A DNA stretch of 64,000 nt, taken from Octopus vulgaris. Taxonomy: Eukaryota. The stretch spans positions 41,850,001 through 41,914,000 of the forward strand of contig OX597831.1 in NCBI GenBank assembly GCA_951406725.2, given 5' to 3'. A program made the position numbers and the translations under genes. A model generated the notes under the pieces. The model saw only the letters and a program-made list of their open reading frames with translations, was not told the origin of the DNA and searched no databases. Every line of letters begins with the position of its first letter. Position 1 is the first letter of the stretch. This document shows, in pieces, positions 3,701 to 50,997 of the stretch.

Positions 3701-5799
3701 ATGAGAGAGCCTCTAAATACTTGCTAGACCTGTTAGAAATAGCAGTCAAATCTTCCTTAAATTACACCTTACCAACTTAAAAAAGAAAGGGCATTGCATA
3801 GTGTAGTTTTAGATGTATATCCTGATTGATCACAGGCGTTTTCTTCCTCTTTGAATGCACACACACGCACATGCGCACACACGCACACACACACACACAG
3901 AGTGATAAATGAATCAGTGATAACTAAATCATCTCCATGAACTTTGTAAATAGAACAAATGGTAGATTCATTGACACAAAATTCACAGCTCAGAATTAAT
4001 TTCTTTACATGGAAGACAAAGTAAGTTCTTATAGAGAACGCTGTAGTCACTTGACTCTTTAGCGTTCCGATTACTATGTCAAATATAATGCTTATCTATT
4101 CACCCTGTTTTGAATTAGTCATGCATTATCTCATAGCTCTGAGATTTCAATGATGTATCTGCTTGTTTTAAGAATGACATTGTAGGGTGGGCGTGAAAGG
4201 CCAGAATCTGGCCAGTTTGAACATAAAACAGGTAGAATATTTTGACTAGATATGGCTAGTTTAAATGCTAAAGTATGAAACTGTTCCCAATATAGAATTC
4301 TCTTGAAATTCTTCAAATCAGCAAAAGGAAATCGTCATCATCATCATCACCACCATTATCATCATCATCATCATCATGCTGGTGTAGGTAGAATAGTTTG
4401 GTGGGGCTGGTTAGGCAAAAGACTACACCAGGCTTCACTGTCTGTTTCGGCGGGGTTTTTATGGCTGGACGCTCTTCCTAACACCAAACGTTTTACAAAA
4501 CCAAACCAAACAAAGGGAACAATAGGGGCACACAAATAAGAAGGAAAGATATTCTGCTTACAGAGAATTTGGTACCATTTGGAGACAGCTTCATGACATG
4601 TCGGTAATCATAAGTCATAGCACAGTCAGAACACCTGAGTAAAAGAGAATCAAAAAATATATTTGAAAATTAAGCTAAGTGAAATTAAAGAAAAGTCAGG
4701 TGAGCATTTTTTCTAATAACATACATACACATATACACATGCACTATATAACCATGTATACACACATATGTGTGTGTGTGTAAGTGTGTGTATGCATATG
4801 TATGTATATACAATATATATACACATGCATATATCTTATATATATATGTATTACACACATACAAACATATATATATATATTAGTGAGACAGAGATTAAAG
4901 AAAAAATGAAGAAGCAAAACGTTTGGTATCACTTGAAACAGTCATTTAATTTAATTAAATTTAATTAAATGCTTTTTTTCAAGTGATGCCGAACATTTTG
5001 CATTTTCATTTTTGCTTCAATTTATATCTACCCACTCAAGGAGTAACCACTTCTAGCTGACTTTGATAGGCAGTCTCAATATCACACTCTCAGCTGTAGT
5101 TCAAACCACCAGAGTTTGAGTGCCAGACCAAACTGAGCACTAATAGTGCATACCTATTACTTTACATCAGTTGATGAAAACTCCTTATATATTCTCTATA
5201 CACACACATATATATAGATATAGATATATATGTGTGTGTGTGTCTGTGTATATATACAGGAGTAAGCACATAAATGTGAAACAAGGTGGGGAAAAGAGTA
5301 CTCAAATACTAGAGGTAGAGTAATGTGCTTTATTTAAAAGCAGCAGAAATATAACAAAACTGTCTGACGAACGGGAATGTGAAACTCTGAGTAACAGCTT
5401 TTGTTATATTTCTGCTGCTTTTAAATAAAGTATATATGTATATATATATATATATATATATTAAAGGAGCACTCTATTGGTTACTACAATGAGAGTCCCA
5501 GCTGATACAATAAATGGAACAACTTGCTCATGAAATTAACGTGCAAGTGGATGAGCACTCCACAGACATGTGTACCCTTAACTTAGTTCTTAGGGAGATT
5601 CAGCATGACACAGAGTGTGACAAGGCTGGTCCTTTGAAATACAGGCACTACTCATTTTTGCCAGCAGAGTGGACTGGAGCAATAAAGTGACTTGCTCAAG
5701 GATACAACACATCGCCGGGAATTGAACACATGACCTAAGCAACACGCCTTTACACACACGCACGTGCACACACACACACACAGACACGCATGCACGCAC

Positions 5800-12383: not shown

Positions 12384-14692
12384 CATAAGATTTGATGAGC
12401 TTCCATCTTCAGTGAAGAGATCTTACATTGGAGCTGTTAATGTTTGTATTTCAAACATAATAAGGTAAAACTTTGTATATTGATCTGTCTAACTTGCTAC
12501 ATTTATATACATTACTTACATGCATGCATACATACATACATTCATACATACATACATACATACATACATACATACATACATACATACATACATACACACA
12601 TACATACATAAATTTACTTCTAATATAGGATAAAATTTTTCCCCAAAAACATTTCATCAAAGAGGCAGCATATTAAAATACCTTTTAAGGTGAAAATTAT
12701 AAACAATTTATAAACAAGAGCAAAAGAAAAAAAAATTCTACGCCAAGTAAAATAAGTACTAGGCTTCCAAAGAATAAGTCCTGGGGTCAATTAGCTCAAC
12801 TAAAGGTGGTGCTCCAGCATGGCCACAGTCAAATGACTGAAACAAGTGTAAAAGAGTAAACGAGCTCAGGCCAACCAAAGTCTTGTGAGTGGATTTGGTA
12901 GACAGAAACTGAAAGAAGCCCGCCGTATATATGTATATGTATATATATCTCTCTCTATATAAACGGCAGTTTGTCTGTGTGCGTGTCTGTGTGTCTGTTA
13001 GGTTGTACCCTCACCCTGACCACGGCTTTCAACCGATTCTGATGAAACTTGACACACACATAGCCCAATGTCATAATTCAAAACTAACGCAGCGAAAATT
13101 TTGAAAAGTTCCCCCAGTTCTGAAAAAAATCGATAAATTCGACATGGGGTCGAGAATCAGAAACACAAACCACAGACTGTCATGGGGACGCAACTCGACC
13201 TTTTTAACTCTCAAAAAAATTTACCATCATTTTTTTTTCCATTTTTTTGCTATTTTTTGGCTATAACTCTCTAAAAATGCTTTATAGTTATTTCCCTTAC
13301 AAATCCGAGCAACGCCGGGCGATACTGCTAGTATATATATATATGTATCCCTCTCTCTCTTTCGGAGAGGCACTGAGCAGCTATACGCACACATACACAA
13401 ACGGCAGTAACTTCCACCTACCGAATTCAATCACAAAGCTCCGGTCGGCTCGGGGCTATAGTGAAAGACACCTACCCAAAGTGCCACGCAGTGGGACTGA
13501 ACCCGAAACCATGTAGATATATATGTATATATGTATGTGTGTGTATATGTATATATATATGTATATATGTATGTATGTGTGTGTATATGTTTGTGTGTCT
13601 GTGTTTGTCACCCCCAACATCGCTTGACAACCGATGCTGGTGTGTTTACGTGCCCATAACATAGCGGTTCGGCAAAAGAAACCAATAGAATAAGTACTAG
13701 GCTTCCAAAGAATAAGTCCTAGGGTCGATATGCTCGACTAAAGGCGGTGCTCCAGCATGGCCATAGTCAAATGACTGAAACAAGTAAAAGAGAAAGAGAA
13801 AGAGAGAGAGAGAGAGATATACACAAAATATTCTATAATTATGTACGTAATTATAATCAGGGGTCAGCTAATTGCTTCACCACATACCGAAATGAGAAAT
13901 AGACAGTAATGTCATTTCAACTACCCATATATCTACATACAAAAAGTGTGTTATTGTCTTGGAGATGCTTATGGTAGTTGAAATGACATTAGGGTCTATT
14001 TCTAATTTCGGTACATGCCAAAGCAGTTAGCTGACCCTTGATTATAATTATGTATATAATTATAGAATACTTTGTATAATTCACCTAAAAAGGTTATTTT
14101 AACGTACTGACTACTTGGTAAAATCATTAATTATTAATCAATTAATTAATTGATCAATTAATTAATTAATCTTACCCTATATTTCTTTTACTTGTTTCAG
14201 TCATTTGACTGCGGCCATGCTTGAGCACCACCTTTAGTCGAGCTAATCAACCCCGGGACTTTCTAAGCCCAGTACTTATTCTATGAGTCTCTTTTTACCG
14301 AACCGCTAAGTGACGGGGACGTAAACACACTAGCATTGGTTGTCAAGCAATGCTAGGGGGACAAACACAGACACACAAACACACACACATTCATATATAT
14401 ACATATATACGACAGGCTTCTTTCAGTTTCCGTCTACAAAATCCACTTACAAGGCATTGGTCGGCCCGGGGCTATAGCAGAACACACTTGCCCAAGATGC
14501 CACGCAGTGGGACTGAACCCGGAACCACGTGGTTGGTTAGCAAGCTACTTACCACACCAGCCACTCCTGCGCCTATATCATTATTATTGTTATATATATA
14601 TATGTACGTATGTATGTATGTATGTATGTATGTATGTATGTATGTATGTATATAAACATCCACACATACATATATGAATGAATGTAAATGAG

Positions 14693-20597: not shown

Positions 20598-21998
20598 TGT
20601 ATGTATGTGTGAAGGCGCATGGCCTGGTGGTGTAGGTGTTACATTCATGATCGCCAGATTGTGGCTTTAATTCTCAGACTGAGCAGTGGGTGCCGTTCCT
20701 GAGCAAAAGACTTCATTTCATATTGCTTCAGCACACTTCAGCTGCAAATGGGTAAACCTGCGACACACTAACCCTCCAATCTTAGCCAGCAGGGTCGCAT
20801 CATTTGAAAGTTCAAAATGATGCAAAGGGCATTGTAACTAGTATTGTTTAACAACATCTGGCAGTCTGTGTGTGTGTGTGTGTGTGTGTGTGTATACAGA
20901 CATGTATATGTTTATTATTTATGCGTTTTGTGTGAGCACATGCACTGAAATGTTTGTGTGTGCTTGTGGGATTATACTTATGTTAAGCAAGCAGTTATTT
21001 TGGCACCCCCCCAAAAAAAAAAACACAAAAACAAAACTCATTTACTTTGAAGAATAACATATAAAAGAAAACTAATAAACCTCAGAGCACAAATTAAAAA
21101 AACAAATAAAAATAAAAACTAAGAAATCAAACAAAAAAAAATATCCTTACCTCATCTGCACACCAGGTGCAATCTTTGTGCAAAGTGAAACACTGTGCAC
21201 AGGTCTCGGCATGTTTACATATTGTACCTGGGGAGAGAAGGACCAAAATAGATTAAGTCATATAGAAGGACCAAGGTTCACTGCCTTGAAGGGTTTAATC
21301 AAACAAATTGACTGGAATTTACTTTTATTGATCCCCCCCCCCCCCAAATCAGAGCCAGCACTAACCCTCATAGGATTTGTACCTCAAACCATTTAAAAGT
21401 GAGGTCAACTAAATGACACAAGGAGGCCAATTCTGACAAACCAATGCCAAAATTCTAACACACTAATGGTTTCAAATTTTGGAACAAGGCCAGCAATTTC
21501 GTGGGAGGGGCTAAGTTAATTAGATTGACCCCAGTGCTCAACTGGTGCTTATTTTATCAACCTTGAAAAGATGAAAGGCAATGCTGACCCTGGCGCATTT
21601 TCACCAATTAAATTTTTCACCAATTAAATTTTTCTTTAATATATGTATATATGTGAAGGCACATGGCTCAGTGGTTAGAGTATCGGGCTTACGATCATGA
21701 GGTTTTGAGTTTGAATTCCTAACTGGGCTGTGTGTTGTATTCTTGAGCAAGACACTTTATTTCACGTTGCTCCAGTTCACTCAGCTGTAGAAATGAGTTC
21801 TGACGTCGGTGATGCCAATCTATATTAGCCTTTGCCTTTCTCTTGGATAACACCGGTGGCATGGAGAGGGGAAGCCGGTATGCCTGGGCAACTGCTGGTC
21901 TTCCATAAAACAACTTTGCTCGGACTTGTGCCTTGAAAGAGAACTTTCTAGGTACAATCCCATGATCAGTCATGACCAAAGGGGGTTTCAGCAACTCA

Positions 21999-22034
<36 letters not shown>

Positions 22035-22180
22035 CAACAAAAACCTGTTACTCTGAGTTTCACGTTCACGTTCGTCGGACAACGAACGGGAATGTGAAAC
22101 TCAGAGTAACAGGTTTTTAATATATATATATATATATATACATACATACCTATATATATATATGTATGTATGTATGTATG

Positions 22181-22211
<31 letters not shown>

Positions 22212-22238
22212 GTATATATATATATATATGTATGTATG

Positions 22239-22273
<35 letters not shown>

Positions 22274-23873
22274 AAAATCCATTCGATCACAGACAGCATG
22301 GTAAGAGGTACAATCATTGTGAAAGGTGGAGTTTGGAACTGAAGCATGCAACAATGTGTGTGCGTGTGTGTGTGTGTTTGTCCTCACTCCCACTGCTTGA
22401 TAACCAGTACTGGTTTGTTTATGTTCCCATAACTTAGCAGTTTGGCAAGAGACTGATAGAAAAGAAATAGAAGCACTGGGATGCCCTAGCATGGCCACAG
22501 TTCAATGAGTGAAACAAGTACAAGATAAAAGATAAAAGAAAAACCCAGAAGGATGAAAGGCAAAGTTAACCGCAAAGGGATTTGAGCGCAGAATGCAGAC
22601 AGAACTAAGTACCCCAAAGTATTTTGTCCAACATTCTAACAATTCTGCCAATTATAATTAAGGGGTTTTCAGCATTGATATTTCCCCTTCTAAATAAAAA
22701 TGACCCCTTGAACTCTAAGACATCCATCACTGACATAAATTACTGGTTTCCACCATAAACCTTTTCTCGTCATCAGGCAACCATAGACCTGTCTGAACTG
22801 GTTCAAACAGGTATTTAATAAGCTGGAAGGATTAGCAACCACTAGAACCAGATCTAACCAGGGTTATTATAGTCAGCATGTGTTAATTAATTTCTCCAAT
22901 ATATCAGGAGCTTTGTTGTTATTGTTGATGCTGTTGTTGTAGTTGGTCATACGGTTGTTCTTGTTATTATTTATGTTATTGATGTTGGTGTTGTTGCATT
23001 ATAAATATGCATGTTGTAGTAGTTGTGCTATTGTTGCTGTAGTTAGTCATCCTGTTGTTGTTGTTGTTGTAGACAGACTTGCTGCTGTTGATGTTGTTGT
23101 TTAGTCCCAAGTCAACACTAATTGAGCAAAGTAGGTTCAAAGGCATTCTAACCGTGACCATCCCGTCTTATTCCATCATTTTCCCCTATGCACAGGACAC
23201 CCAACACCACATTATCCAACAAGTCCTTTTTCAAGTAGGCTGTGAGTTCATTTAAGGGAAATCTAGCTGCTATTTCTAGCATTAAGCAACCACAAAGCAG
23301 TTCCCTTGTCACGCATTATTCTAGTTATTGAAGATGATGTTTAGCTCCAGGTTTGCTCTGATCAAAGCAGGCATATGATCAATAACATTCCAAACATGCC
23401 CATCCTGATTTGTGTGTGGGGGGGTGTATGACAGGGGAGAGTATATCTAGGTGTACATTATCTAATGTGTTCATCATACAAAAGTAAGGTAGTGTAAGAT
23501 AGGGGAGGGTTGGCTGCTATTTCTAGCATGTCAAGTGACCATGTAAAGGTAACTTCATTGACTTAGGTCAATAAATGTGCAACTGTTGTTACTGTTGTGG
23601 ACGTCATTGGTGTTCTTGGCTGTGTTCTTGCTGTAGTTCTGGTTCATTCTATTTTTATTGTTGTTATTGATTATTACTGTTTGTCATTGTGGTGGTTGTT
23701 ATTGATGTGGAAGCATGACAAGGTTTAGGCGCGAAGTTTGCTTCCTGACAACATGGTTATGGATTCAGTCGCACTGTGTGGCACTTTGAGACCAACCAAA
23801 ACCTTGTGAGTGGATTTGGTAGATGGAAACTGAGAGAAGCCTGCCATATAGTTACATATATATATATATATAT

Positions 23874-23909
<36 letters not shown>

Positions 23910-25497
23910 GTGGAGGCGCAATGGCCCAGTGGTTAGGGTAGCGGACTTGCGGTTTCGATTCCCAGACTGGGCGCTGTGAGTGTTTATTGAGTGAAAACAG
24001 CTATGGCTCCACAAGGCTCCAGCAGAGGGTGGTGGCGATCCCTGCTGTACTCTTTCACTGCAACTTTTTCTCACTCTTTCTTCTGTTGGCCTGCTCACTT
24101 AGCCAGCAGGGTGGCGTCATTTGAAGGCTAAAACAATGTGAAGCGCATTGTGACCAGCGATGTGTAGCAACATCTGATAGCCTGGTCGGTCACAGTCACG
24201 GGAATATATAGATAGATAGATAGATAGATAAATAGATATATGTATCAGACTGGAGCCTGGAGCAGCCCCTGGCTCCCCAGACCCCGGTCGAACCGTCGAA
24301 CCCGTGCTAGCGCGGAAAACGGACGTTAAACGATGATGATGATGATGATGATGATATATATATAATATATATATATATTATATATCACGTGATTGACCAG
24401 ACCATCAGATGTTGCTACACATCGCTGGTCACAATGCATTCGCATTCTTTTACCCTTCGAGTGATGCCACTCCGCTGGCTAAGCGAGCAGGCCAACAGGA
24501 GAAAAAGTGAGAGAAAGAGTGGTGAAAGAGTACAGCAAGGATCGCCACCACACCCTGCCGGAGCCTCTTGGAGCTATAGGTGTTTTCACTCAATAAACAC
24601 TCACAACGCCCAGTCTGGGAATCGAAACCGCGATCCTATGACCACGAGTTCGCTGCCCTGACCATATTATATATGTATGTATGTATGTGTGTATGTATGT
24701 ATGTGTGAATGTATGTATGTATGTATGTATGGTATATATGTACATATGTATTTAAATATATGTACATGTATACATATTTACATATACACACACGCACATA
24801 TATATATACTAACAGAGATACCCGGCGTTGCTCGGGATTAAAATGGCATGGTTTTTTTTATTGTTTTACTTGTTTCAGTCAAGTGACTGCAGCCATGCTG
24901 GACACTGTCTTTAGTCGAACAAATCAACCCCAGGTTTTATTATTTGTAAGCCTAGTACTTATTCTATCAGTACTTATTTTGCCAAACCACTAAGTTACAG
25001 GGACATAAACACAGCAACATCGGTTGTCAAGTGATAGTGGCGGTACAAACCAAGGCACATACACACAGACACACAAATATGCACATATGTATATGTGTAT
25101 ATGTATGTATACATATGTATATGTATATTATTTCAATTTCTGTATACAAAATCAACTCACAAGGCTTTGCTCAGCCTGAGGCTATAGACTATGTGTCTGT
25201 GTATACACATACACACACATATATATTAGTAGAAATATTTATGATACAGCTCATGTCAGTAAATGGAGTCGGGACTGTCTTGTATACAAATAAATACAAT
25301 AAATGCACATGCAGAGAAAAATCAAAGTGCCCATTGATGAATCTCTGTATGAGTACAAATCTTGTATATAAATGTACCAAGAGCGTTTATACTCTCTTTT
25401 ACTCTTTACTCTTTTACCGAACCGCTAAGTGACGGGGACGTAAACACACCAGCATCGGTTGTCAAGCAATGCTAGGGGGACAAACACAGACACACAA

Positions 25498-25582
<85 letters not shown>

Positions 25583-26826
25583 TATATACATATATACGAC
25601 AGGCTTCTTTCAGTTTCTGTCTACCAAATCCACTCACAAGGCATTGGTCGGCCCAGGGCTATAGCAGAAGACACTTGCCCAAGATGCCACGGAGTGGGAC
25701 TGAACCCGGAACCATGTGGTTGGTTAGCAAGCTACTTACCACACAGCCACTCCTATTTGTTAAAAATTATTTCTAATACTTTTCTTGCTGCATTGCATGT
25801 TAATTTCTCTTTCTCCTGTGATTTTCGTTTTGATCTTCTACGTAAATAAAGATATTTCCTCCATCTGGCTGCTTTTCTTTCTACAGAATGAGAAGTTACA
25901 TTGCGGAACTTTTATTTTAACAAGTTGTGTCTATTTATCCCCCACTGAGATACATCTGTATGGCCAGATGCTCCTCAACCAGTTGTCAAGTGTCCCACCC
26001 ATAAGATGCTAGATGCGTCGAAACAATTGTTGTGATTAATGATAAATCCTCATATATTCTATCTTCCATCTTTCATTTGCCATATACATAACGATCACTG
26101 TGAAAGTGACCATGCTTTACCAGTAAGCTATCAAGTGTAAACCATTCATTTTATTATCCAATATGTGTGTGTGTGTGTGTGTATATATATACAGTTAATC
26201 CAAACATGAACAAAGAGAAAACACAACAACGCGGGGACATGGAACAAGTATAGTGTTATTGGAAGCTCAGGAAAGGAAAGAAGGAAGGAGGATTTAACAT
26301 TTTGAGCAGAGCTCTTCGTCAGAAACATAGAAAAAGGAAAAGTCCAAGGATGGGAAAACGGAGAAAGAAAATCGCCAACTATACACACGCGATCCCATAT
26401 TGAATATATATACATATATATATAGATACACACATACACACATCTACACGTATTACCCTTACTGCAGCTGCTGGATTTGAAAAGCCACTTCACACCTAGC
26501 TGAGATGACAAATGGAAGCTTTCGACACTTCAACATTTCAGATTGGCCTTGGTTATCTAATTTACTTTTTGATTTATTTTTATATATTTATTTATTGACT
26601 TGTTTTATTTTTGTATAGCAAATACAGCTAATTGGTATGCTAAGAAACTTTTATCATCATCATCATCATCGTCATTATCATCAACATCGTCATCATCACC
26701 ATTATCATCACTCACTATGGTTATTATCACTAATCATCCTCATCATCATCATGATAATGATTGAAGTTCTTAGTTATTTTGCCTACCCCAACACACAAAC
26801 ACACACACACACACGCACACATGCAC

Positions 26827-26896
<70 letters not shown>

Positions 26897-29800
26897 ACAT
26901 AACTTGCCTCCTTGCATTACTTTACCATCACATTAATTGGCCTTGTGCCATCACAGTAACATAGTACTCCGTTCCATTTCTACCACATAAACAATAGTCA
27001 TTAACTCAAATTTTTTTTCAGTTTGTGTTAGATATTTTCTTCAGCTTGTTAGGATAGTCTTCTCTTTTTTGGTGAACTAATTTACACGTATTCTGTAGAA
27101 CATACATACATACATCGTCGTCGTCATCATCATCTCATTTAACATTTATTTTCCATGATGGCATGGATTGGACAGTTTAACAGGAGCTGAAAAGCTATCC
27201 AGGCTCCTTGTCTGTTGTGGCATTGTTTCTACAGCTGGATGTCCTTCCTAACACCAAACACTCTACAGAGTGTACTTGGGTGCTTTTACACAGCACAGTC
27301 ATGGGAGCATTTATGTGACACTGATAAGGGTGATTTTTATGTGACACCAGGATCCATGAGCCCGCAAGATTAGGAATGCTCAGCTGGAGAGGGTTGCAGG
27401 GGACAAATCTGTATACAAGGACAATCATGCTTTTACTTAGCTTGGCATGTCTTCTCAAGCACAGCAAACCACCAGAAGTCTCAGTCCCCTTTAATCCCCT
27501 CTGTAAGTCCCAACATCTGTAGATCCTTTCTCACCACTTCGTCCCACATCTTCCTGGATCTACCCCTTATACATGCTCCCTCTACAATTAGAGATCAGCA
27601 TCTCTTGATACATTCATTCATATGCATTACATGCCCATACCAGTGCAGTCTTCTCTCTTGCACACTACATCTTATGCTATGTACACCCAGTTTTTCTCTC
27701 AAATTACTTACACTCTGTTGTAAATGCACACTGACATTACCCATCCAGCAGAGCATGCTGGTTTCATTTCTTTCAAAGCTTTGCATATCCTCTGTAGTCA
27801 CAGCCCATGCTTCACTGCCATGTAGCATAGCTGTTCATTCACAGGCATCATACAATCTGCTTTTCACTCTGGGGGAGAGGCCCTTCGTAACTAACAGAGG
27901 TAGTAGCTTTCTGAACTTTGTCCTGCCTATCCTTATTCTGGCAGCTATGCTTTCAGAACAACCTCCCCCACTATTAACTTGGTCACTTAAGTAATAGAAA
28001 CTGTATACTCCTATTTTCTGTACATTCCTGGTGTTTAATGTACATGCACCTCTGCCACATGTAAAGATTACTTCCTCTGTTAGTCTTCCATTAATACTGC
28101 TGCACCTCTTATATGTCCATAGCTTGCACTGAGTACACAATATGGAGTTTCTCCCAACACCTTTTCTATAAATCAAGCAAGCCCATCTCCCTGAATGGAT
28201 CTGTGATTTGTCTGTTTTCCTACTTATCAAGATTTTGGTCTTCTAATTTAATTCTAAGGCCCTTTGATTCCAGTCTGTGCTTCCATACAAGAAATTTCTT
28301 TTCTAGTTTTTATAGTGATGATACAAACATATACATATACATATATATACACACATACACATGCGTATATATATATTATCATGAGATATATTATTATACT
28401 ACTATTAAAGCCAATATGTTTCTCTCATGGTAACTAACACAACATCCACTTTTAAACAGGGTTAAATATTACCCATACATACATACATACATATATATAC
28501 TAGCTGACGTACCTGGTAATTCCTGGGAAAGTGGGTTTATCCCTTGGTTATGTTCTCATAATTTTTTGCTAATCCAATAACAATACAAAGTATGTAGCCC
28601 TTAAAATGGTTTTTGTGCATTTACAGAGAATACCAAACATTCTTACACAGGATCTTGTTTTTAGGAATTCCCAATAAGTTATGAATACTCAAATTGTGAA
28701 GTCGGTTATGTAATAACATGAAATTAGTTACCCGATAGTAAGAATTCAAATAAAGTTGCCCCCCAAAAGAGCTTTAATGCATTCCCAGAATATATAGAAC
28801 ATAGGAAGAAATACTAATAAGGTATGTATACAAAAATCATACAGCATGTTACATAATAACAGGCTAATCAGATATGAGATAATAATTCAAAGTAAATAAT
28901 TCTGGAAAGGGCTTTTGTGTGTTCCCAGAGAATATTACCCCCAGGGGCACTAGTGTTGGTATATTTGTGAACAAGTTACTAATCGAAATAAGTGGATCTA
29001 TTGTTTAGGAATACACTATTTACTTGTTTAAGGGTTGTACTGGATAAATTTCAAAAATAACTCTAACAGTTCAAATACTAAGAAATAAGCATACTCAATT
29101 TCATTTTTACCAAATAATTTAGGAAAATGAATGGGTTATTTCACTTGGCTATATATAAGGATCCCTTCCAGGGGCAAATGGGTTATTTCCCTTGGCTTTT
29201 AAAATAAAATATAGTAGATATATAAGGATCCCCTCCAGGAGCCCTTTTATCGAATGTTTCAACAATCTGAGTATGCCATGAGGTTTCTATACATTTCTAC
29301 TCACATGTCAAGTTTCATCAAAATTGATAAAATGATGTGGGAGGAGTTAGCTAACAATGCCACAAACACACCTACAGACAGAATGTAGCGTGTGTATATA
29401 TATCTAATTAATAAAGACAGCAGGGTGCAATGTTTTACCAAAAGGAAAAACTATAATTGTCACTAAATATGACAAGGGTGTTAGAACACTTACATTACTA
29501 GAAATAAGAGCTAAAAAGTTCTAATGCTGTAGTTAAAGCACATAATTGTATAGATATGTACTGACAAGGACTGTAATCGCCTGAAAGCACCAGTCAAGAG
29601 TTCCCTATACTGACCAGTCAGTTTCAGCTAATTCCATAGACTCATCAGTAGGGACCACTTGACTCAGCTGATTCCAGACTTAATTCTCTGTCAGTAGTTA
29701 CATATGTATCCACCATAAAAATCTATGGATGATTTAGTAAATCACTAATGTGTATATAAAAAAAAATTAAGATAAACAGCCATGTGCAATGTTTTACCAA

Positions 29801-30697
29801 AAACAAAAACTATAACTGTCACTAGATATAACTAGGGTATTGGAACATGTGTGTGTAACCTATATAGTAGACTAGCAGTATTGCCCGGCGTTGCTCGGGT
29901 TTGTAAGGGAAATAACTATAAAGCATTTTTAGAGAGTTATAGCAAAAAAAATAGCAAAAAAAATGGGAAAAAAATTATGGTAAATTTTTTTTTAGGGTTA
30001 AAAAGGTCGAGTTGCATCCTCTAGACAGTCTGTGGCTTGTGTTTCTGATTCTCGACCCCATGTCGAATTTATCGATTTTCAGAACTGGGGTAACTTTTCA
30101 AAATTTTCACTGCGTTAGTTTTGAATTATGACATTGGGCTATGTGTGTGTCAAGTTTCATCAGAATCGGTTGAAAGCCGTGGTCAGGGTGAGGGTACAAC
30201 CTGACAGACACACAGGCACACACACAGACAAACTGCCGTTTATATATAGAGAGATATATAAACAAGGTTGATTTAGCTATTTCTCCATAGATTGAGAAAT
30301 GATGAAAAGCCTTAATTGGTTTTCAAACCTTCCTGGCATCTCATCAGAGTTGTTTACATCAAACTGAGCAATGAGCAGCCAATCTGTTTATAGCAGCTGG
30401 CTGTATTTGAACACAGAATGCATAGAACTAGAAAAGATACTATATGGAGTATTTCATTTCATGTCATAACAATTCCCTCAACCCACACCTTCTTGATTGA
30501 TACTCTGTTGTTAATCTTATGCTAAAATGATGAGTAGCTAAAGTTGACCTCAGTGAGATCTGAACTCAGAGAGCTGAGTCACAAAAGACACTGCAAGCAT
30601 TCTTGCCAACAAACTAAGAAATCTGCCACCTCACCGCTAGACTATCAAATGTACATGCGTGTGTGTGTGTGTGTGTGTGAATGCACACATGTATGTG

Positions 30698-30741
<44 letters not shown>

Positions 30742-30789
30742 AACACTCACATGTGTGTTGTGTATAAATAAATACATATAAATAAATAC

Positions 30790-30833
<44 letters not shown>

Positions 30834-30850
30834 ATATACACACAGACACA

Positions 30851-30898
<48 letters not shown>

Positions 30899-33427
30899 TA
30901 CATAATATATAACAGTAAGATAAAATAGATATTTGGTTTCTATTATGGCAGAAATGAATGATGCATTTTCAAGTGTAATATTAGTAGTTATTAATAGGAA
31001 CCATACCTTTCTTTCTTTCTCTCTCTCTCTCTCTCTCTCTTTATTTATTTATTTATTTTTTTTTTTGATACTATAAATATTATATTTGCTATCTTTCAGG
31101 AACAACAAGTGTCAAAGACACACTCAGCTGTATCACTGATAGATGTGACACAGGCCAAGTAACAAATGCTGTACTACTTCAACATACTTTATCTGATGAT
31201 ATTTATCCCACACCCCGCTATACCAGTCTATACCATTCATACATTCGAAATGTCAACTATGCCATTTGACACTGCTGCTGCTGCTCTCACTGTTGTTGTT
31301 ACAGTAGTAGTTGCAGTTGCTAGTGCTGCTATGGTTGTTGTTGCTTAGGTGTAGATGAGCAGACACCATAATCCAATATGTTCCTGTATTGACCACCCTG
31401 TGTATGAATTTCTTTCTCTTTCAAAAATAAGACAATGCAAGTGAGAGCTGTGATGCATCTTAACCAAATAAAAGGATTTCGAATCTAAGCATTGGGCTGT
31501 CTTAGTAGCTTTATAGGCCCCTGGGCAAATCTATACACTGGGCCCTACAGCATTTACTTATTGACAGCAAGCTACAGCATATATAGTTCAGAATAAATCC
31601 CCCAGATCCGTGGGGCCTCTGGGTTACTGCCCAGTGTGCCCATACCTTAAGACGGTACTGACTAAATACACGGACTTAAATTACAGTCAGCAGGATTAAA
31701 GACACTTAATCTGATACCAGTAGTTTACTGGAACCTTACTTATTTTATCAAATATTAGAAAGGTAAAGTCAAATCTAGTGGACATTGAACTCAGAATATA
31801 AAAAGAACCTGACTTAATAGTGCAAGATCTGCCCAACTCTTAACTGATTCTGCCAAACCACTGTTCTGCAACCAGATGAAATAAATACTTCCTTATTAAG
31901 TCAACAAGGGTGCTTCTACATAGTCATTCAATCTACAAGAAGGAGCAGGCAAATCTCCTATAAATCAGACACTATTGTGCAAACAAAAAGAAGTGCAAAT
32001 TAAATAATTTGACTCTATATACATTATCTTGGGAAACAATAAAAGTGAATGGTCATAACTGGATTGCTTTAAAGTAAAGATCTACTCAATTATGTCCTAT
32101 CTAGGATTAAACACCAAGTTGTGTATATCGAACATGTAATTAAAAAATTTAGTTTCTGTCTGAACTTCCTTTAGTCTTTTTCAGCATATGTGTACAAATG
32201 AACTGATTTCAATTTTGTTTTAACAACAATAAATCTCAATAAATCCTGTTGCCATAGGAAATTTGTTGACATAGTAGAAGTAAAACCATAAATCTTTGAT
32301 GTGTATGTGCGTTTAAGGGAGTGTGTGCATGCATATGCCTAATACATACACATATGAAAACATAAACACACACATATATTATACTTACATACAGACATGT
32401 ATTTATGTCAATCACCCCCCATTCTACTCTATAATAATAACTGACAGATAAGTAATAAAACACATGCAGAAAAAAAGAGAGCACACATACATATACATAA
32501 TACATACATGTATGTGTGTGTGTGTGTGTGTGTGCACGCGCGCGCGCGTATGTATGTATATACACAGACACACGCATTCGCACATACACTTTGATGAAAG
32601 GACACACAGAAAGTTTATAATGAAAAAAAAAAGCTGTGGACACATGTTTATACCTGTTTGCATGTGTATGTGTTAGTCACTCTGACAAACACATCTATTG
32701 GATTTTTGGATCTTTTCCTTTTGAACGGCACATGTCAACACAATTTCTAGTTAACTAGACACTTTTAAATTTCGTATACTGGTAGAATGTGTTTATAAAA
32801 CATCATTTTTTCTTAGCTTTACTGAGAAAATTCTATAGGTTGTAAGATATTTCGTCTGAAATTTCGAGCATTTCGGCAATTTTAACCAATCAAATTTGTC
32901 CATTTAGTTAAATAACATTCCGTGCTGTATGAATACATCCCTCCTTTAAGAAACAGATTGGGTTTATTTACATTTGTGAAGAAAAAAAGATACCTTTCCC
33001 CAACCCCTAACCCTAAATCTAAAATAGATTGAAATGCAATAGATCGATACTAGGGCCATAATTATGGGTGACATTTTCATTTGACACCGCTAGAAAAAAA
33101 TCCCATTTTCCGTAGCGGTGTCTAGGGGAAAAAAAAAAACGAAATGGTCACAGCTTGAAAGCTTTTCGATCAGCAAGTTTGGTTGCCGTAAATAAACCAT
33201 GGGCTAAACAACAACAACAACAACAACAAAAGAAGAAGAAGAAGAAGAAGAAGAAGAAGAAGAAGAAGAAGAAGAAGAAGAAGAAGAAGAAGAAGAAGAA
33301 GATGATGAAGAAGAAGATGATGAAGAAGAAGAGAAAGAAGAAGAAGAGAAAGAAGAAGAAGAAGAAGAAGAAGAAGAGAAAGAAGAAGAAGAAGAAGAAG
33401 AAGAAGAAGAAGAAGAAGAAGAAGAAG

Positions 33428-33458
<31 letters not shown>

Positions 33459-33674
33459 CAAAGTAGGTAAGCAGTGGGATGAAGAAAGTGAAGAAGAAAA
33501 GGAAAGAAAAAAAAAGAAAGACAGAATAAAAGAAACAGAAAAGGAAAACGATGAAGAAAAAAAAAGGAATTACTTGAAAGAATATTAAAAATAAATAACT
33601 ATATATTTACCTTCAGTAGGTATAACTACAGAAAGTATACAAATCACAGCAAATAGGATCACTTTCGTTTCCAT
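673..33674 (-). CDS. ITGB: Integrin beta subunit, 5' part of a spliced gene (9 coding exons, 810 nt = 270 aa in window; continues beyond left edge)
   Basis: Manual splicing with consistent phases gives [270 protein letters not shown]. Integrin-beta motifs: PSI cysteines, QPQ..L.LRP, VDLY.LMDLS.SM, GFGS.VEK, D.PE.GFDA.MQ..VC, IGWR. The paralog cannot be assigned without a search. Confidence 0.95.
864..1973 (+). mobile_element. Degenerate Tc1/mariner-superfamily transposon (maT/Tc1-like), interrupted by a SINE
   Basis: TIRs cagggtgttcaggccaaatttgat / atcaaatttagcctgaattctctg with TA flanks; transposase remnants [16 protein letters not shown] and [13 protein letters not shown]. Confidence 0.75.
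1007..1227 (-). mobile_element. tRNA-type SINE family A
   Basis: 14-bp TSD ctgttagctgactt (993-1006, 1228-1241); homologous to copies at 45520, 59155 and 60021. Confidence 0.85.
2243..3440. mobile_element. Tandem trimer of a ~240-bp TTAA-type (piggyBac-like) MITE; middle unit interrupted by a LINE fragment
   Basis: Three homologous units (2243-2477, ~2478/3005-3195, 3196-3440) joined at gttaacc/ggttgacc junctions; a fourth copy at ~35896-36516. Confidence 0.65.
2496..3003 (-). mobile_element. CR1/L2-type LINE 3' fragment
   Basis: ORF 2654..3037(-) has the RT C-terminal signature [16 protein letters not shown]...SFK; (TTA)n tail. Confidence 0.8.
3544..3630 (-). CDS. ITGB: Integrin beta coding exon 8 ([29 protein letters not shown])
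   Basis: gaaatccag|CAAATG...TGTGAA|gtaagt; 87 nt, phase 0 to 0; lies inside listed ORF 3484..3690(-). Confidence 0.96.
4562..4634 (-). CDS. ITGB: Integrin beta coding exon 7 (specificity-determining loop: [25 protein letters not shown])
   Basis: cttttactcag|GTGTTC...TTCTCT|gtaagc; 73 nt, phase 2 to 0; C..C...Y.Y.HV..L motif. Confidence 0.92.
5360..5397 (+). ncRNA. Minimal type-I hammerhead ribozyme motif
   Basis: cugu-CUGACGA-acg(ggaa)ugu-GAAA-cucugag-UA-acag. Stem II has a GNRA loop, stem III is palindromic, and stem I extends into a ~38-bp inverted repeat (5326-5432). Confidence 0.7.
5466..5750 (-). mobile_element. SINE family B copy (CpG-decayed)
   Basis: Alignable by eye to 36002-36375, 58124-58410 and 59685-59995. 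Confidence 0.75.
5955..6243. mobile_element. Mariner-type MITE
   Basis: TIRs gtgcattcaaaaagtatctg / cagatactttttgaatgcac in a TA context. Confidence 0.65.
7579..7681 (-). CDS. ITGB: Integrin beta coding exon 6 ([34 protein letters not shown])
   Basis: tctctacag|CTAAAG...ACAAT|gtaagt; 103 nt, phase 1 to 2; IT..F.LGFGS.VEK motif. Confidence 0.96.
8640..9000 (+). mobile_element. RTE-like LINE 3' remnant (related remnant at 52960-53260, minus)
   Basis: ORF 8769..8972 contains GRPK...LASDRTLWR, typical of an RTE ORF C-terminus. Confidence 0.6.
9027..9158 (-). CDS. ITGB: Integrin beta coding exon 5 (start of beta-I domain, MIDAS loop [16 protein letters not shown])
   Basis: ctactttcag|GAAAG...ACTTG|gtaaga; 132 nt, phase 1 to 1; lies inside listed ORF 8875..9333(-). 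Confidence 0.96.
11137..11218 (-). CDS. ITGB: Integrin beta coding exon 4 (hybrid: [27 protein letters not shown])
   Basis: ctatttcag|AATGAA...AGACCCA|gtaagt; 82 nt, phase 0 to 1; QPQ..L.LRP motif. Confidence 0.93.
12948..13331 (+). mobile_element. Non-autonomous Helitron
   Basis: 5' TC, 3' hairpin ccgagcaacgccggg then CTAG, inserted between A and T, no TSD; near-identical copy at 29872-30254(-). Confidence 0.8.
14184..14573 (-). mobile_element. SINE family C (tRNA-like head, internal microsatellite); other copies or fragments near 12742-12930, 13550-13795, 24855-25190, 25400-25755, 40925-41282, 44570-44890, 48600-48815, 57630-57850
   Basis: Recurrent sequence gttccgggttcagtcccactgcgtggca...gacggaaactgaaagaagcc...cttagcggttcggcaaaag...aaatgactgaaacaagtaaa. 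Confidence 0.85.
16117..16547 (+). mobile_element. MITE with GGATC termini, 8-bp TSD and internal (TTAGGG)n
   Basis: TIR ggatcttttcagtttgaacggcagtttt / aaaactgctgttcaaaccgaaaagattc; TSD gatttatc/gatttgtc. Confidence 0.85.
18478..18588 (-). CDS. ITGB: Integrin beta coding exon 3 (PSI end: [37 protein letters not shown])
   Basis: cattgtag|GTATTC...ATCAAG|gtataa; 111 nt, phase 0 to 0; RCD...L....C...I.NP motif. Confidence 0.93.
18663..19227 (-). mobile_element. Internally deleted mariner transposon
   Basis: TIRs ttgggttgtccggaaagttc / gaactttctagacaacccaa; minus-strand remnant [24 protein letters not shown]...[15 protein letters not shown] (mariner YSPDLAPSD motif). Confidence 0.9.
19525..19895 (+). 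mobile_element. RTE-associated SINE or LINE 3' end with (GAT)n tail and internal ~60-66-bp tandem repeats
   Basis: Ends ccaacccatgctagcatgg...ggacgttaaacgatgatgat; the same tail occurs at 9235-9440, 24245-24355 and on the RTE fragment at 27115-27260. Confidence 0.7.
19907..20108 (+). mobile_element. Short mariner deletion remnant
   Basis: Imperfect TIR gtgctgtaaagttcctggcttt / aaagccaaaaacttttcagtac; C-terminal remnant [12 protein letters not shown]. Confidence 0.55.
20356..20560 (+). mobile_element. RTE-type LINE extreme 3' fragment with C2H2 finger
   Basis: [20 protein letters not shown] embedded in a (TATG)n array. Confidence 0.55.
21151..21227 (-). CDS. ITGB: Integrin beta coding exon 2 (PSI: [26 protein letters not shown])
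   Basis: ctctccccag|GTACA...GATGAG|gtaagg; 77 nt, phase 1 to 0; PSI C..C...C.WC.D pattern. Confidence 0.93.
23911..24200 (+). mobile_element. SINE family B (alternative tail)
   Basis: tRNA-like head ggcgcaatggcccagtggttagg...ggtttcgattccc with A/B-box-like motifs. Confidence 0.85.
24385..24666 (-). mobile_element. SINE family B (alternative tail), inverted relative to 23911-24200
   Basis: Reverse complement of the neighbouring copy. Confidence 0.85.
27115..28310 (-). mobile_element. RTE-clade LINE 3' fragment (degenerate)
   Basis: ORFs 27835..28230 and 27595..27828: [16 protein letters not shown]...RLYDAC / MLHGSEAWA...RRLHWYGHV; 3' UTR with (GAT)n tail. Confidence 0.88.
28500..29403 (-). 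mobile_element. Older Helitron-like element
   Basis: CTAG plus decayed hairpin (cctggtaattcctggg) at 28500; far end has the aagtttcatcaaaat...cacaaacac.cctacagacag motif resembling the other Helitron 5' ends. Confidence 0.5.
29405..29850 (-). mobile_element. Hammerhead-containing partial tandem repeat (~358-bp period), retrozyme/Penelope pLTR-like
   Basis: A ~85-bp direct repeat at 29407-29490 and 29765-29848 flanks the hammerhead at 29602-29654. Confidence 0.6.
29602..29654 (-). ncRNA. Type-I hammerhead ribozyme motif (Penelope/retrozyme-like)
   Basis: Minus strand: UCCCUA-CUGAUGA-gucuauggaauuagcu-GAAA-cugacuggucag-UA-UAGGGA. Perfect 6-bp stem I, complete core, near-palindromic stem III, GUA cleavage triplet; stem II imperfect. 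Confidence 0.8.
29872..30254 (-). mobile_element. Non-autonomous Helitron (same family as 12948-13331)
   Basis: Reverse-complement match along the full length, with TC and hairpin-CTAG termini. Confidence 0.8.
31490..31660. mobile_element. hAT-like MITE remnant
   Basis: Imperfect TIRs gggctgtctta / taagacggtactg with internal gggcccc/tgccc motifs. Confidence 0.45.
33205..33458. repeat. (CAA)n/(GAA)n microsatellite; another (GAA)n(GAT)n at 18246-18345
   Basis: Direct sequence. Confidence 0.95.
33611..33674 (-). CDS. ITGB: Integrin beta coding exon 1 (signal peptide [21 protein letters not shown])
   Basis: ttctttcttccag|A-ATG...GAAG|gtaaat. Hydrophobic signal peptide; phase-1 end matches the next exon. 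The acceptor just before the ATG implies an upstream non-coding exon. Confidence 0.85.
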
Positions 33675-33919
33675 TCTGGAAGAAAGAAGAAACGTGAGAG
33701 AATTAAGAAAAGAATAAACGAAAGAAAGTGTAGGGGAAAACAAAAAAAATAACGTTTATCAAAAGAAAATAATTTCTAAAGAACTTGATAATTGTGGTAG
33801 GGTATTTCTTTCAAATCTCTAACTTGTACATGTATACAAGAACCTATCTCTATGCAGATGAGATTTAGGGAGCTAGTTTTCGCTCACACCTTCTTTCTAC
33901 TGTCCCCTCTTTCTCCCTT

Positions 33920-38312: not shown

Positions 38313-39782
38313 AGTTAGGATTTAGGGTTTAAGTTAAAATTTAAGGTAAAGTTAGGATTTAGGTTTAAGGTTAGGATTTAGGGTTTAAGTTAAAATTTAA
38401 GGTTAGGATTTAGGGTTAAAGTTAGGATTTAGGTTTAAGGTTAGGATTTAGGGTTTAAGTTAAAATTTAAGGTTGGGGTTTAGGGGGTTATGATTTAGGT
38501 TTAAGGTTAGGATTTAGGGTTTAGGGTTAAAGTTAGGATTTAGGTTTAAGGTTAGGATTTAGGGTTTAAGTTAAAATTTAAGGTTAGGGTTTAGGGTTAA
38601 AGTTATGATTTAGGTTTAAGGTTAGGATTTAGGGTTTAAGTTAAAATTTAAGGTTGGGGTTTAGGGTTAAAGTTATGATTTAGGTTTAAGGTTAGGATTT
38701 AGGGTTTAGGGTTAAAGTTAGGATTTAGGTTTAAGGTTAGGATTTAGGGTTTAAGTTAAAATTTAAGGTTAGGGTTTAGGGTTAAAGTTAGGATTTAGGT
38801 TTAAGGTTAGGATTTAGGGTTTAAGTTAAAATTTGAGGTTAGGGTTTAGGGTTAAAGTTAGGATTTAGGTTTAAGGTTAGGATTTAGGGTTTAAGTTAAA
38901 ATTTGAGGTTAGGGTTTAGGGTTAAAGTTAGGATTTAGGTTTAAGGTTAGGATTTAAGGTTTAAGTTAAAATTTAAGGTTAGGGTTTAGGGTTAAAGTTA
39001 GGATTTAGGTTTAAGGTTAGGATTTAGGGTTGAAGTTAAAATTTAAGTTTTGGGTTTAGGGTTAAAGTTAGGATTTAGGTTTAAGGTTAGGATTTAGGGT
39101 TTAAGTTAAAATTTAAGGTTAGGATTTAGGGTTAAAGTTAGGATTTAGGTTTAAGGTTAGGATTTAGGGTTTAAGTTAAAATTTGAGGTTAGGGTTTAGG
39201 GTTAAAGTTAGGATTTAGGTTTAAGGTTAGGATTTAAGGTTTAAGTTAAAATTTAAGGTTAGGGTTTAGGGTTAAAGTTAGGATTTAGGTTTAAGGTTAG
39301 GATTTAGGGTTTAAGTTAAAATTTGAGGTTAGGGTTTAGGGTTAAAGTTAGGATTTAGGTTTAAGGTTAGGATTTAGGGTTTAAGTTAAAATTTGAGGTT
39401 AGGGTTTAGGGTTAAAGTTAGGATTTAGGTTTAAGGTTAGGATTTAAGGTTTAAGTTAAAATTTAAGGTTAGGGTTTAGGGTTAAAGTTAGGATTTAGGT
39501 TTAAGGTTAGGATTTAGGGTTTAAGTTAAAATTTAAGGTTTGGGTTTAGGGTTAAAGTTAGGATTTAGGTTTAAGGTTAGGATTTAGGGTTTAAGTTAAA
39601 ATTTAAGGTTAGGGTTTAGGGTTAAAGTTAGGATTTAGGTTTAAGGTTAGGATTTAGGGTTTAAGTTAAAATTTAAGGTTAGGGTTTAGGGTTAAAGTTA
39701 GGATTTAGGTTTGAGGTTAGGATTTAGGGTTAAGGTTTATGGTTAGCGTTCGCGTTTAGGGTTAGGATTAAGGTTAGGATTA
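38313..39782 (+). repeat. Telomere-like minisatellite, 70-bp unit, ~20 copies
   Basis: Unit gttaggatttaggtttaaggttaggatttagggtttaagttaaaatttaaggttagggtttagggttaaa recurs every 70 nt (38761, 38831, 38901 ... 39671). Confidence 0.95.
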
Positions 39783-50914: not shown

Positions 50915-50997
50915 GAGAGTCAATGACAGAGAGAGTGAAAACGAGAAAAGTAGATATGAAAGAACGCTGGGTTAACTTCAAGGAAATTTATTTCCAA

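What the first reader, a model, noticed from the sequence alone, without database searches (positions are those of the whole stretch)
29405..29850. Retrozyme-like unit: sense-strand intronic hammerhead in a ~358-bp partial tandem
Seen: on the integrin-transcribed strand, 29654-29602 folds as a type-I hammerhead (stem I UCCCUA/UAGGGA, CUGAUGA, GAAA, stem III cugac-ug-gucag, GUA site). It is bracketed by a diverged ~85-bp direct repeat 358 bp apart and has no ORF. Established: Penelope-like elements and metazoan non-LTR retrozymes are short tandem units with type-I hammerheads, often with a palindromic stem III that cleaves as a dimer, and retrozymes yield circular RNAs. Inference: this is a cephalopod retrozyme or pLTR family member whose ribozyme is co-transcribed in the integrin pre-mRNA. 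Two deviations (ccgg>cugg in stem III, C11.1>U) look like CpG decay.
Basis: partly seen in the sequence, partly recalled or inferred. Interest (0 to 1): 0.78.

Follow-up and report, generated by a model that had tools for sequence, protein, structure and literature searches.

The report
Decayed octopus retrozyme in integrin intron
A hammerhead-ribozyme motif lies on the sense strand of an octopus integrin intron, inside a 359-base repeat with many relatives in octopus-run data, and is likely an old, probably no longer self-cutting copy of a retrozyme, a small jumping RNA already known from mussels and corals.

Summary
A type I hammerhead with intact core sits at 29654-29602 (minus; predicted cut 29608/29607). 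An equally good motif is expected 0.005 times per shuffled window. It lies in a 359-bp, 34% GC, ORF-free unit with a partial second copy (99 nt, 81%), sense in a 12.4-kb intron of integrin beta (exons 100% identical to Octopus sinensis). Public contigs show a multi-copy family in two organism labels, with head-to-tail and inverted joints. None of 12 majority differences around the ribozyme breaks a predicted pair; they mend stem II and the flanking rod. So the fold belongs to the family and this copy is a decayed monomer, predicted to lock about 10 kcal/mol below the active fold. Corrections: stem III is a 5-bp helix with a variable, mostly non-palindromic tetraloop, so dimer dependence is not supported; the worst lesion (29640, stem II) was missed; C11.1>U decay is unsettled. 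Cleavage, circles and arrays of complete ribozymes are not shown. Verdict: likely a new cephalopod member of the known non-LTR retrozymes; no role in integrin control shown. One twist: stem III repeats the CUGA core box, giving a built-in blocking fold.

The parts
29602..29654 (-). Type I hammerhead ribozyme, core region (stem I 29654-29649/29607-29602; CUGAUGA 29648-29642; stem II 29641-29626; GAAA 29625-29622; stem III 29622-29609; H17 = A29608)
29592..29664 (-). Extended stem I with internal loop 1 (distal helix 29664-29658/29598-29592)
   Evidence: (z -5.4); pair 29660/29596 is A-U here and G-C in most other copies
29607..29608 (-). Predicted scissile bond after GUA
   Evidence: cleavage untested
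29608..29650 (-). Competing, predicted inactive pairing: core strand 29650-29644 pairs with the 3' strand of stem III (29614-29608), because stem III repeats the CUGA box
   Evidence: pair probability 0.9994 vs 0.0 for stem III
29541..29717 (-). Long imperfect rod that carries the ribozyme at its tip
   Evidence: pairs with p>0.5; majority letters at 29553, 29567, 29582/29676 restore, strengthen or swap pairs
29406..29764 (-). One full 359-bp unit, 34% GC, no ORF above 23 aa; circular fold -85.5 kcal/mol, z -3.0, 1 of 100 shuffles as stable
29391..29488 (-). 3' copy of the duplicated segment (first 10 nt may belong to the left flanking repeat)
29749..29847 (-). 5' copy of the duplicated segment, likely the 5'-truncated start of a second unit; 18 of 89 ungapped positions differ from the other copy
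21228..33610 (-). Host intron (12.4 kb) of integrin beta, between signal-peptide exon 33675-33611 and PSI exon from 21227; predicted cut 4.0 kb after the donor and 8.4 kb before the acceptor
28498..29402 (.). Left neighbour: unrelated high-copy repeat, Helitron-like by recalled end features; not part of the unit
   Evidence: its last 140 nt laid
29861..30260 (.). Right neighbour: unrelated young high-copy repeat, Helitron-like by recalled end features; 93% copy at 12942-13341; the unit does not resume after it

Best explanation
This is a 1.25-unit copy of a multi-copy, 356-359-bp octopus repeat carrying a type I hammerhead motif, likely a non-LTR retrozyme, that sits sense in an integrin beta intron and is predicted to have lost self-cleavage by decay. 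Likely mechanism, inferred from the mussel, coral and axolotl retrozymes: head-to-tail arrays are transcribed, each hammerhead cuts after GUA, unit-length RNAs with 5'-OH and 2',3'-cyclic phosphate are circularised by a host RtcB-type ligase, and a Penelope-like RT/endonuclease copies a circle or multimer into new sites. Reverse transcription that starts at a fixed 3' end (about 29400, equivalent to 29757) and runs one full unit plus about 90 nt would give this partial tandem. Shown: motif, unit, intron, multi-copy family, the family letters that keep or mend the fold. Predicted: the blocked fold of this copy. Inferred: cleavage and circles of other copies, the Penelope partner, the insertion route, and an age of roughly 30 My.
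For: Intact core, chance 0.005 per window. Unit 359 bp, 34% GC, no ORF, like mussel retrozymes of 350-390 bp (PMC7229834). Family: 8-24 distinct contigs per DNA run carry a majority other letter at single positions from 29596 to 29660, in organism labels A (X1) and E (X8). Of 34 rows shown inside the unit, 27 are majority differences in both DNA runs; 15 of the 27 are G/C-to-A/T transitions in this copy, 7 in CpG context. Of the 12 in 29540-29720, none breaks a predicted pair: 29640 and 29553 turn mismatches into G-C pairs, 29567 turns G-U into G-C, 29660/29596 and 29676/29582 are double changes, 29600 and 29587 turn G-C into G-U, three fall in unpaired positions (read by eye). Head-to-tail order elsewhere: joints 29748->29466 and 29737->29475 (sides 38 and 34 nt) and 29763->29499 run from inner part across the repeat into inner part. 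Four of six inverted joints shown break at 29755-29760, the position equivalent to this copy's left end; inverted truncated copies beside a fixed pLTR end are typical of Penelope-like elements. Penelope-like elements cover 6.83% of the O. vulgaris genome. Canonical, not minimal, architecture: no extra base between A9 and G10.1, helix I 6 bp plus distal helix, helix III 5 bp. This copy: active fold -17.9 to -19.7 vs -30.0 kcal/mol blocked; P(core open) 5e-8.
Against: No locus with two complete hammerheads was seen, so the 'active retrozyme' criterion of Li et al. is not met here and could not be tested genome-wide (no genome held). Each head-to-tail joint is a single contig with a deletion; the joints of period 356-357 that start inside the repeat prove nothing alone; only 15 of 74 joints were shown. 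Both double changes fall on CpG sites, where two independent deaminations keep pairing half the time, so they are weak covariation. Summed depth over 29490-29512 is 50-140 times that over the ribozyme in both DNA runs, which this model does not explain. G10.1-U11.1 departs from the highly conserved G-C pair and may be a family state. No Hammerhead_1 hit. The copy held by the two RNA-guess runs appears to have two broken pairs next to the core. Nearest-neighbour energies always penalise the hammerhead junction, so the blocked-fold numbers overstate the gap.
Confidence: 0.72

Rival explanations
1. A remnant of the pseudo-LTR of an autonomous Penelope-like element: a 5'-truncated insertion that kept only the terminal repeat with its hammerhead, never an independent circle-making element.
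For: Inverted joints with a fixed end at 29755-29760 (4 of 6 shown) are Penelope-like; most PLE insertions are truncated to one terminal repeat, and 21 PLE families match Xenopus retrozymes at their pLTRs; the strongly uneven depth along the unit could reflect truncation.
Against: Metazoan PLE hammerheads are mostly minimal, with an extra base after A9, helix II of 7-8 bp and little or no helix III; this one is canonical. No RT or GIY-YIG among 115 frames scanned with Pfam; both ends abut unrelated repeats; inner-repeat-inner joints imply arrays of the short unit.
Confidence: 0.15
2. A domesticated intronic ribozyme that cuts integrin pre-mRNA and tunes splicing, like the RECK/CTCL hammerheads of amniotes or the CPEB3 ribozyme.
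For: Sense strand, 8.4 kb before the next exon, similar to the 9.9 kb of Cpeb3; all core bases intact despite an apparent age of tens of My; double changes keep two pairs.
Against: This copy has lost a stem II pair that 79% and 94% of family depth keeps and is predicted blocked as monomer and as dimer. About 43% of Xenopus retrozymes are intronic, so the place is unremarkable. No orthologous copy was shown in another species.
Confidence: 0.05
3. A TRIM-like mini LTR element: 98-99-bp terminal repeats around a 260-bp inner part that holds the hammerhead.
For: The BLAST-extended repeat starts with TGT and ends with ACA on the plus strand.
Against: No primer-binding TGG, no purine tract and no target-site duplication by eye; depth rises rather than falls across the supposed LTR end at 29488; the TGTGTATATA start may be the end of the left flanking repeat; no tRNA nearby.
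Confidence: 0.05
4. A chance match to the hammerhead consensus inside an ordinary repeat.
For: No Rfam hit at gathering score; the minimum-energy fold is not the hammerhead fold.
Against: 0.005 expected per window; family letters mend stem II and keep stems I and III; loop 2 UGGAAU matches the Rfam hammerhead loop consensus at 5 of 6.
Confidence: 0.02

Closest known systems
Mytilus galloprovincialis non-LTR retrozymes (Cervera and de la Pena 2020, PMC7229834)
   Same: Mollusc, type I hammerhead, unit of 350-390 bp, low GC, no ORF; some mussel circles are predicted to block the ribozyme by self-pairing.
   Different: Cleavage and circles are shown for mussel, not here; sequences are species-specific and could not be compared (supplement unreadable); stem III here is 5 bp and repeats the CUGA box.
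Vertebrate non-LTR retrozymes and their solo monomers (Li, Clavereau, Pollet 2026, bioRxiv 10.64898/2026.07.22.740005)
   Same: Dispersed monomer copies, about 43% intronic in Xenopus, related to Penelope pLTRs; 8 of 9 tested dimers did not cleave.
   Different: No mollusc among their 35 genomes; their active class needs two complete hammerheads in tandem, not seen here.
[quoted passage not shown]
   Same: Type I topology, partial tandem and inverted arrangements.
   Different: No extra base after A9, longer helix I, stable helix III, no RT/GIY-YIG frame nearby.
Conserved intronic type I hammerheads of amniotes, RECK and CTCL (review PMC6155905)
   Same: Single type I hammerhead in an intron.
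   Different: Those are conserved across species; this copy is a degraded member of a multi-copy family between two other repeats.

Membership tests
Metazoan non-LTR retrozyme | Canonical type I hammerhead core | tested here: met
   all core bases present; G10.1-U11.1 wobble is atypical
Metazoan non-LTR retrozyme | Unit of 150-450 bp, GC below 45-50% | tested here: met
   359 bp, 34% GC; range
Metazoan non-LTR retrozyme | No ORF, LTR, primer-binding site or purine tract | tested here: met
   longest ATG frame 23 aa; no PBS/PPT by eye
Metazoan non-LTR retrozyme | Multiple genomic copies | tested here: met
   8-24 contigs per DNA run with a majority other letter at single ribozyme positions, organisms A and E
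Metazoan non-LTR retrozyme | Head-to-tail arrays with two or more complete hammerheads somewhere in the genome | tested here: inconclusive
   three single-contig inner-repeat-inner joints; this locus has one hammerhead; no genome held
Metazoan non-LTR retrozyme | Self-cleavage of family copies | not testable with these tools
   needs in vitro assay; this copy predicted blocked
Metazoan non-LTR retrozyme | Unit-length circular RNA in tissues | tested here: inconclusive
   two RNA-guess runs hold a different copy over the core; contigs cannot show circles, strand or ends
Penelope-like element pLTR | Adjacent RT plus GIY-YIG frame | tested here: not met
   none in 115 frames scanned with Pfam; short decayed pieces could be missed
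Penelope-like element pLTR | Minimal hammerhead (extra base after A9, helix II 7-8 bp, little helix III) | tested here: not met
Penelope-like element pLTR | Inverted truncated copies joined at a fixed end | tested here: inconclusive
   4 of 6 inverted joints shown break at 29755-29760; 15 of 74 joints shown
Dimer-dependent hammerhead | Helix III of 1-2 bp with a palindromic loop | tested here: not met
   5 bp; CCGG at most 35% of depth, CCGA 22-57% (X1) and 55-65% (X8)
Rfam Hammerhead_1 / Hammerhead_3 | Score at gathering threshold | tested here: not met
Conserved intronic hammerhead (RECK/CTCL type) | Conservation at the orthologous intron across species | not testable with these tools
   X8 pieces shown differ by 19-36 letters over 145-233 nt and cannot be placed at this locus

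The most novel reading that the evidence does not exclude
An octopus retrozyme family whose hammerhead carries its own off-switch: stem III is a copy of the CUGA catalytic box, so its 3' strand can capture the core and silence the monomer circle, while in multimeric transcripts two stem III strands pair and free both cores. That would answer, for this family, the open question of how metazoan retrozyme circles avoid re-cleavage. In most family copies the capturing helix would be a perfect 7 bp.
Probability: 0.12. Interest if true: 0.7.

Novelty: new member of a known kind. Interest (0 to 1): 0.38.

Why it matters
It would extend retrozymes to cephalopods and give repeat annotators a ribozyme-bearing family that the 2026 O. 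vulgaris annotation does not mention in its text or supplement. Retrozymes are expected in a mollusc rich in Penelope-like elements, so this is an incremental gain. The copy in the integrin intron is most likely a passenger. The interesting lead is the stem III that duplicates the catalytic box: most metazoan retrozyme circles are predicted to leave the ribozyme free, and how they avoid cutting themselves is stated as unknown. A local blocking fold is directly testable.

Tried and rejected
Whole-genome search: no genome held. Other copies in the window: none by BLAST; Tandem Repeats Finder does not report the unit. Continuation of the unit beyond either flanking repeat: scores 31 and 27 against a null of 28.8 +/- 4.5, max 44 (null made for the right side only). 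Pattern scans of metagenome and viral contigs: 9 and 1 loci, none with BLAST similarity to the unit at E<0.01; dropped as unrelated hammerhead-like motifs. No RNA holder listed on record; five RNA-guess runs held 0.05 of the words, two were laid. In those two, 29651-29857 has no cover and no back-joint was among the 15 joints shown; neither is evidence on expression or circles. A CUGAUGA..GAAA look-alike near 30345 (minus) lacks stems II and I; a loose hit at 5364 (plus) has no stem II and is within chance (0.18 per window). Dimer rescue of this copy: double hammerhead -51.0 to -54.6 kcal/mol against -60.0 for two blocked monomers and -70.9 for the best dimer, so not favoured. Earlier findings of the scan: nothing in four look-ups. 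No paper found on the effect of a G10.1-U11.1 pair. TRIM reading considered and ranked low. Folds of other family copies were not computed, since their sequences are not returned by the tools; the blocking helix in those copies rests on complementarity alone.
Full report
Observation. On the minus strand, 29654-29602 carries every conserved base of a type I hammerhead: stem I (6 bp), CUGAUGA, stem II, GAAA, stem III, GUA, with H17 at 29608. A descriptor scan of both strands found two hits in the 64 kb; this is the only one with stem I >=6 and stem III >=5, a class expected 0.005 times per shuffled window (200 shuffles). Stem I continues through an internal loop to 29664/29592 (14 of 16 positions paired; z -5.4), and the ribozyme sits at the tip of a rod spanning 29717-29541. 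The direct repeat is real (83 nt, 83%, spacing 359; 99 nt, 81%, E 3e-20). The unit is 359 bp, 34% GC, longest ATG frame 23 aa; as a circle it folds at -85.5 kcal/mol, z -3.0, though its paired fraction (0.62) equals that of shuffles. Rfam gives no hit at gathering score and only a sub-threshold, permuted Hammerhead_3 match, in which loop 2 UGGAAU agrees with the model loop at 5 of 6.

Host. An exon at 9159-9028 matches integrin beta pat-3 of Octopus sinensis at 100% (P0002). tblastn maps nine exons on the minus strand, 96.6-100% identical over the aligned spans. The element lies in the intron 33610-21228 (GT-AG), sense, with the predicted cut 4.0 kb after the donor and 8.4 kb before the acceptor. 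It is boxed between two unrelated high-copy repeats (28498-29402 and 29861-30260), which I call Helitron-like from recalled end features only. The unit does not resume beyond them. No RT or GIY-YIG domain was found in 115 frames (6, 109; chosen by length and complexity).

Family. No genome was held, so I used public runs: 20 of 24 listed hold part of the stretch, from 11 studies and six organism labels. Four were laid at 80% likeness on 29260-29930: X1 (DNA guess, organism A; 4168 contigs), X8 (DNA guess, organism E; 1477), X16 and X19 (RNA guess, A and B; 139 and 116); these counts include the flanking repeats. One X1 contig matches 29523-29815 with 3 differences, so the locus is no assembly error, though X1 may be the window's own sample. 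At single positions from 29596 to 29660, 8-24 contigs per DNA run carry a majority other letter. The table showed 40 of 140 rows; 34 lie in the unit and 27 of those are majority differences in both DNA runs, 15 being G/C-to-A/T transitions in this copy and 7 in CpG context. Twelve of the 27 lie in 29540-29720. Read by eye against the pairs, none breaks a pair: 29640 makes the U-C mismatch of stem II a G-C pair (79% and 94%), 29553 makes a C-C mismatch a C-G pair (97%, 95%), 29567 makes G-U into G-C, 29660/29596 and 29676/29582 change both partners, 29600 and 29587 leave G-U, and 29614, 29616, 29710 are unpaired. Both double changes are on CpG sites, so they may be paired deaminations rather than selection. 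The fair conclusion is that the family folds better than this copy.

Arrangement. Of 15 joints shown (74 in all), six go back. Those of period 356-357 start at or inside the duplicated segment and could be single passes through it. Two (29748->29466, 29737->29475; at least 38 and 34 nt on each side) and one from the letters-between table (29763->29499) link inner part to inner part across the repeat, which points to head-to-tail order at other loci; each is one contig with a deletion. Four of six inverted joints break at 29755-29760, the position equivalent to this copy's left end near 29400. A fixed end with variable inverted partners resembles Penelope-type insertions (passages of Craig et al.). 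If the two terminal copies were identical at insertion, 18 differences in 89 nt (JC 0.24) give 0.12 each, about 30 My on the scale used for O. vulgaris; this is rough. Unexplained: summed depth at 29490-29512 is 28,375 (X1) and 13,288 (X8) against 204-531 and 126-249 over 29582-29673. Depth is no copy number. Loose ends at 29543 (45 and 22 contigs) go on in sequence that by eye is homologous but about 70% alike, which suggests a larger, more diverged subfamily that falls under the 80% cut-off over the CpG-rich ribozyme.

RNA-guess runs. X16 and X19 each hold one contig over the core and the cut site (depth 158 and 122) with the same nine visible differences in 29569-29649 and the same 17-nt loose end. 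It is another copy, not this locus. By eye it lacks about 46 nt of the 5' arm, swaps one stem I pair (C-G to U-A at 29652/29604) and appears to break the two pairs next to the core; one difference was not shown. It looks like a second compromised copy. The run kind is a guess and contigs show neither strand nor circles.

C to U at 29616 fits CpG decay. But the loop's last base is A in 65% of depth in both runs, so CCGG is at most 35%, and stem III is 5 bp against the 1-2 bp of dimer-dependent hammerheads. Position 11.1 would be a CpG site if C, but it is not among the rows shown and X19 has no C there; it stays open.

Mechanism. By analogy with mussel, coral and axolotl retrozymes (Results parts 1-2 of 3 and Discussion of PMC7229834 read), arrays would be transcribed, cut after GUA, circularised by an RtcB-type ligase and reinserted by a Penelope-like enzyme; such elements cover 6.83% of the O. 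vulgaris genome (supplement row). This copy has one ribozyme, so it cannot release a unit in cis. It is predicted to be blocked: the core strand 29650-29644 pairs with the 3' strand of stem III (p = 0.9994; stem III 0.0), -30.0 against -17.9 to -19.7 kcal/mol for the active fold, and pairing two molecules narrows but does not close the gap. Two of this copy's own changes (29640, 29616) create a second helix of that blocked fold; the first helix comes from stem III repeating the CUGA box, and with A at 29614 it would be a perfect 7 bp in most copies. The mussel paper notes that most metazoan circles are predicted to leave the ribozyme free and that the block is unknown, with some mussel circles as exceptions. 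That is the basis of the novel case; it rests on complementarity alone.

Comparison and novelty. It works like, and probably belongs to, the metazoan non-LTR retrozymes: four defining features met, arrays and circles inconclusive, cleavage untestable. It fails the Penelope pLTR tests for a coding neighbour and a minimal ribozyme. Intronic position is common (43.9% and 42.3% in two Xenopus species). Searches for 'hammerhead ribozyme'+'octopus' (4 listed), 'ribozyme'+'cephalopod'+'genome' (20 of 28 listed), 'retrozyme'+'octopus' (2 listed) and 'octopus'+'Penelope'+'transposable elements' (15 of 20 listed) showed no report of a cephalopod retrozyme in titles and abstract starts. The O. vulgaris repeat paper has no 'ribozyme' in text or supplement. 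PMC7229834 has no 'octopus' or 'cephalopod' in its main text, but its supplement could not be read, one supplement of PMC4209133 was not searched, bioRxiv supplements are closed and subscription papers are outside the library, so a prior listing cannot be excluded. Papers seen: Li et al. 2026, parts 1-3 of 5; PMC4209133, parts 1-2 of 4 and two supplements; passages only of Craig et al. 2021, PMC2837043, PMC13282606, PMC6155905, PMC10919898. Verdict: new member of a known kind; interest 0.38.

Noticed in passing
window 38314-39744: Telomere-like satellite (AGGTTTA/TTAGGG-type 7-mers with a 70/140-bp higher-order period, about 10 copies of 140 bp) upstream of the integrin signal-peptide exon.
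   Followed up: no
window 36365-36294 and 24664-24602 (minus): The first 24 residues of relative P0001 match these repeat copies (88% and 86%) instead of the signal-peptide and PSI exons, and run straight into the 18588 exon; possibly a repeat-derived alternative first exon or a mis-predicted protein.
   Followed up: no
window 29861-30260: Repeat with very high depth in X1, X16 and X19 but about 6 or none in X8 over the 70 nt laid; 93% copy at 12942-13341 and a 70-nt piece at 50997. Looks like a young, lineage-restricted family.
   Followed up: partly
window 29444-29558: Part of the unit 50-140 times deeper than the ribozyme in both DNA runs, with a diverged continuation after 29543 in 45 and 22 contigs.
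   Followed up: partly
X16 record 16 and X19 record 24 (window 29520-29649): The same variant copy, with deletions in both arms of the rod and apparently two broken pairs next to the core, in RNA-guess runs of two organism labels.
   Followed up: partly
L007:813-840 and 1099-1126: Metagenome contig with two hammerhead-like motifs 286 bp apart in a 70-bp, 90% repeat; unrelated to the octopus unit.
   Followed up: no
window 28500-29250: The left flanking repeat has internal diverged duplications (spacings 47, 67, 302, 344).
   Followed up: no
window 33675-33720: The signal-peptide exon is preceded by a strong acceptor; residues 1-13 of P0002 were not found in the window by 5-mer search, so the gene's first exon is unplaced.
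   Followed up: no
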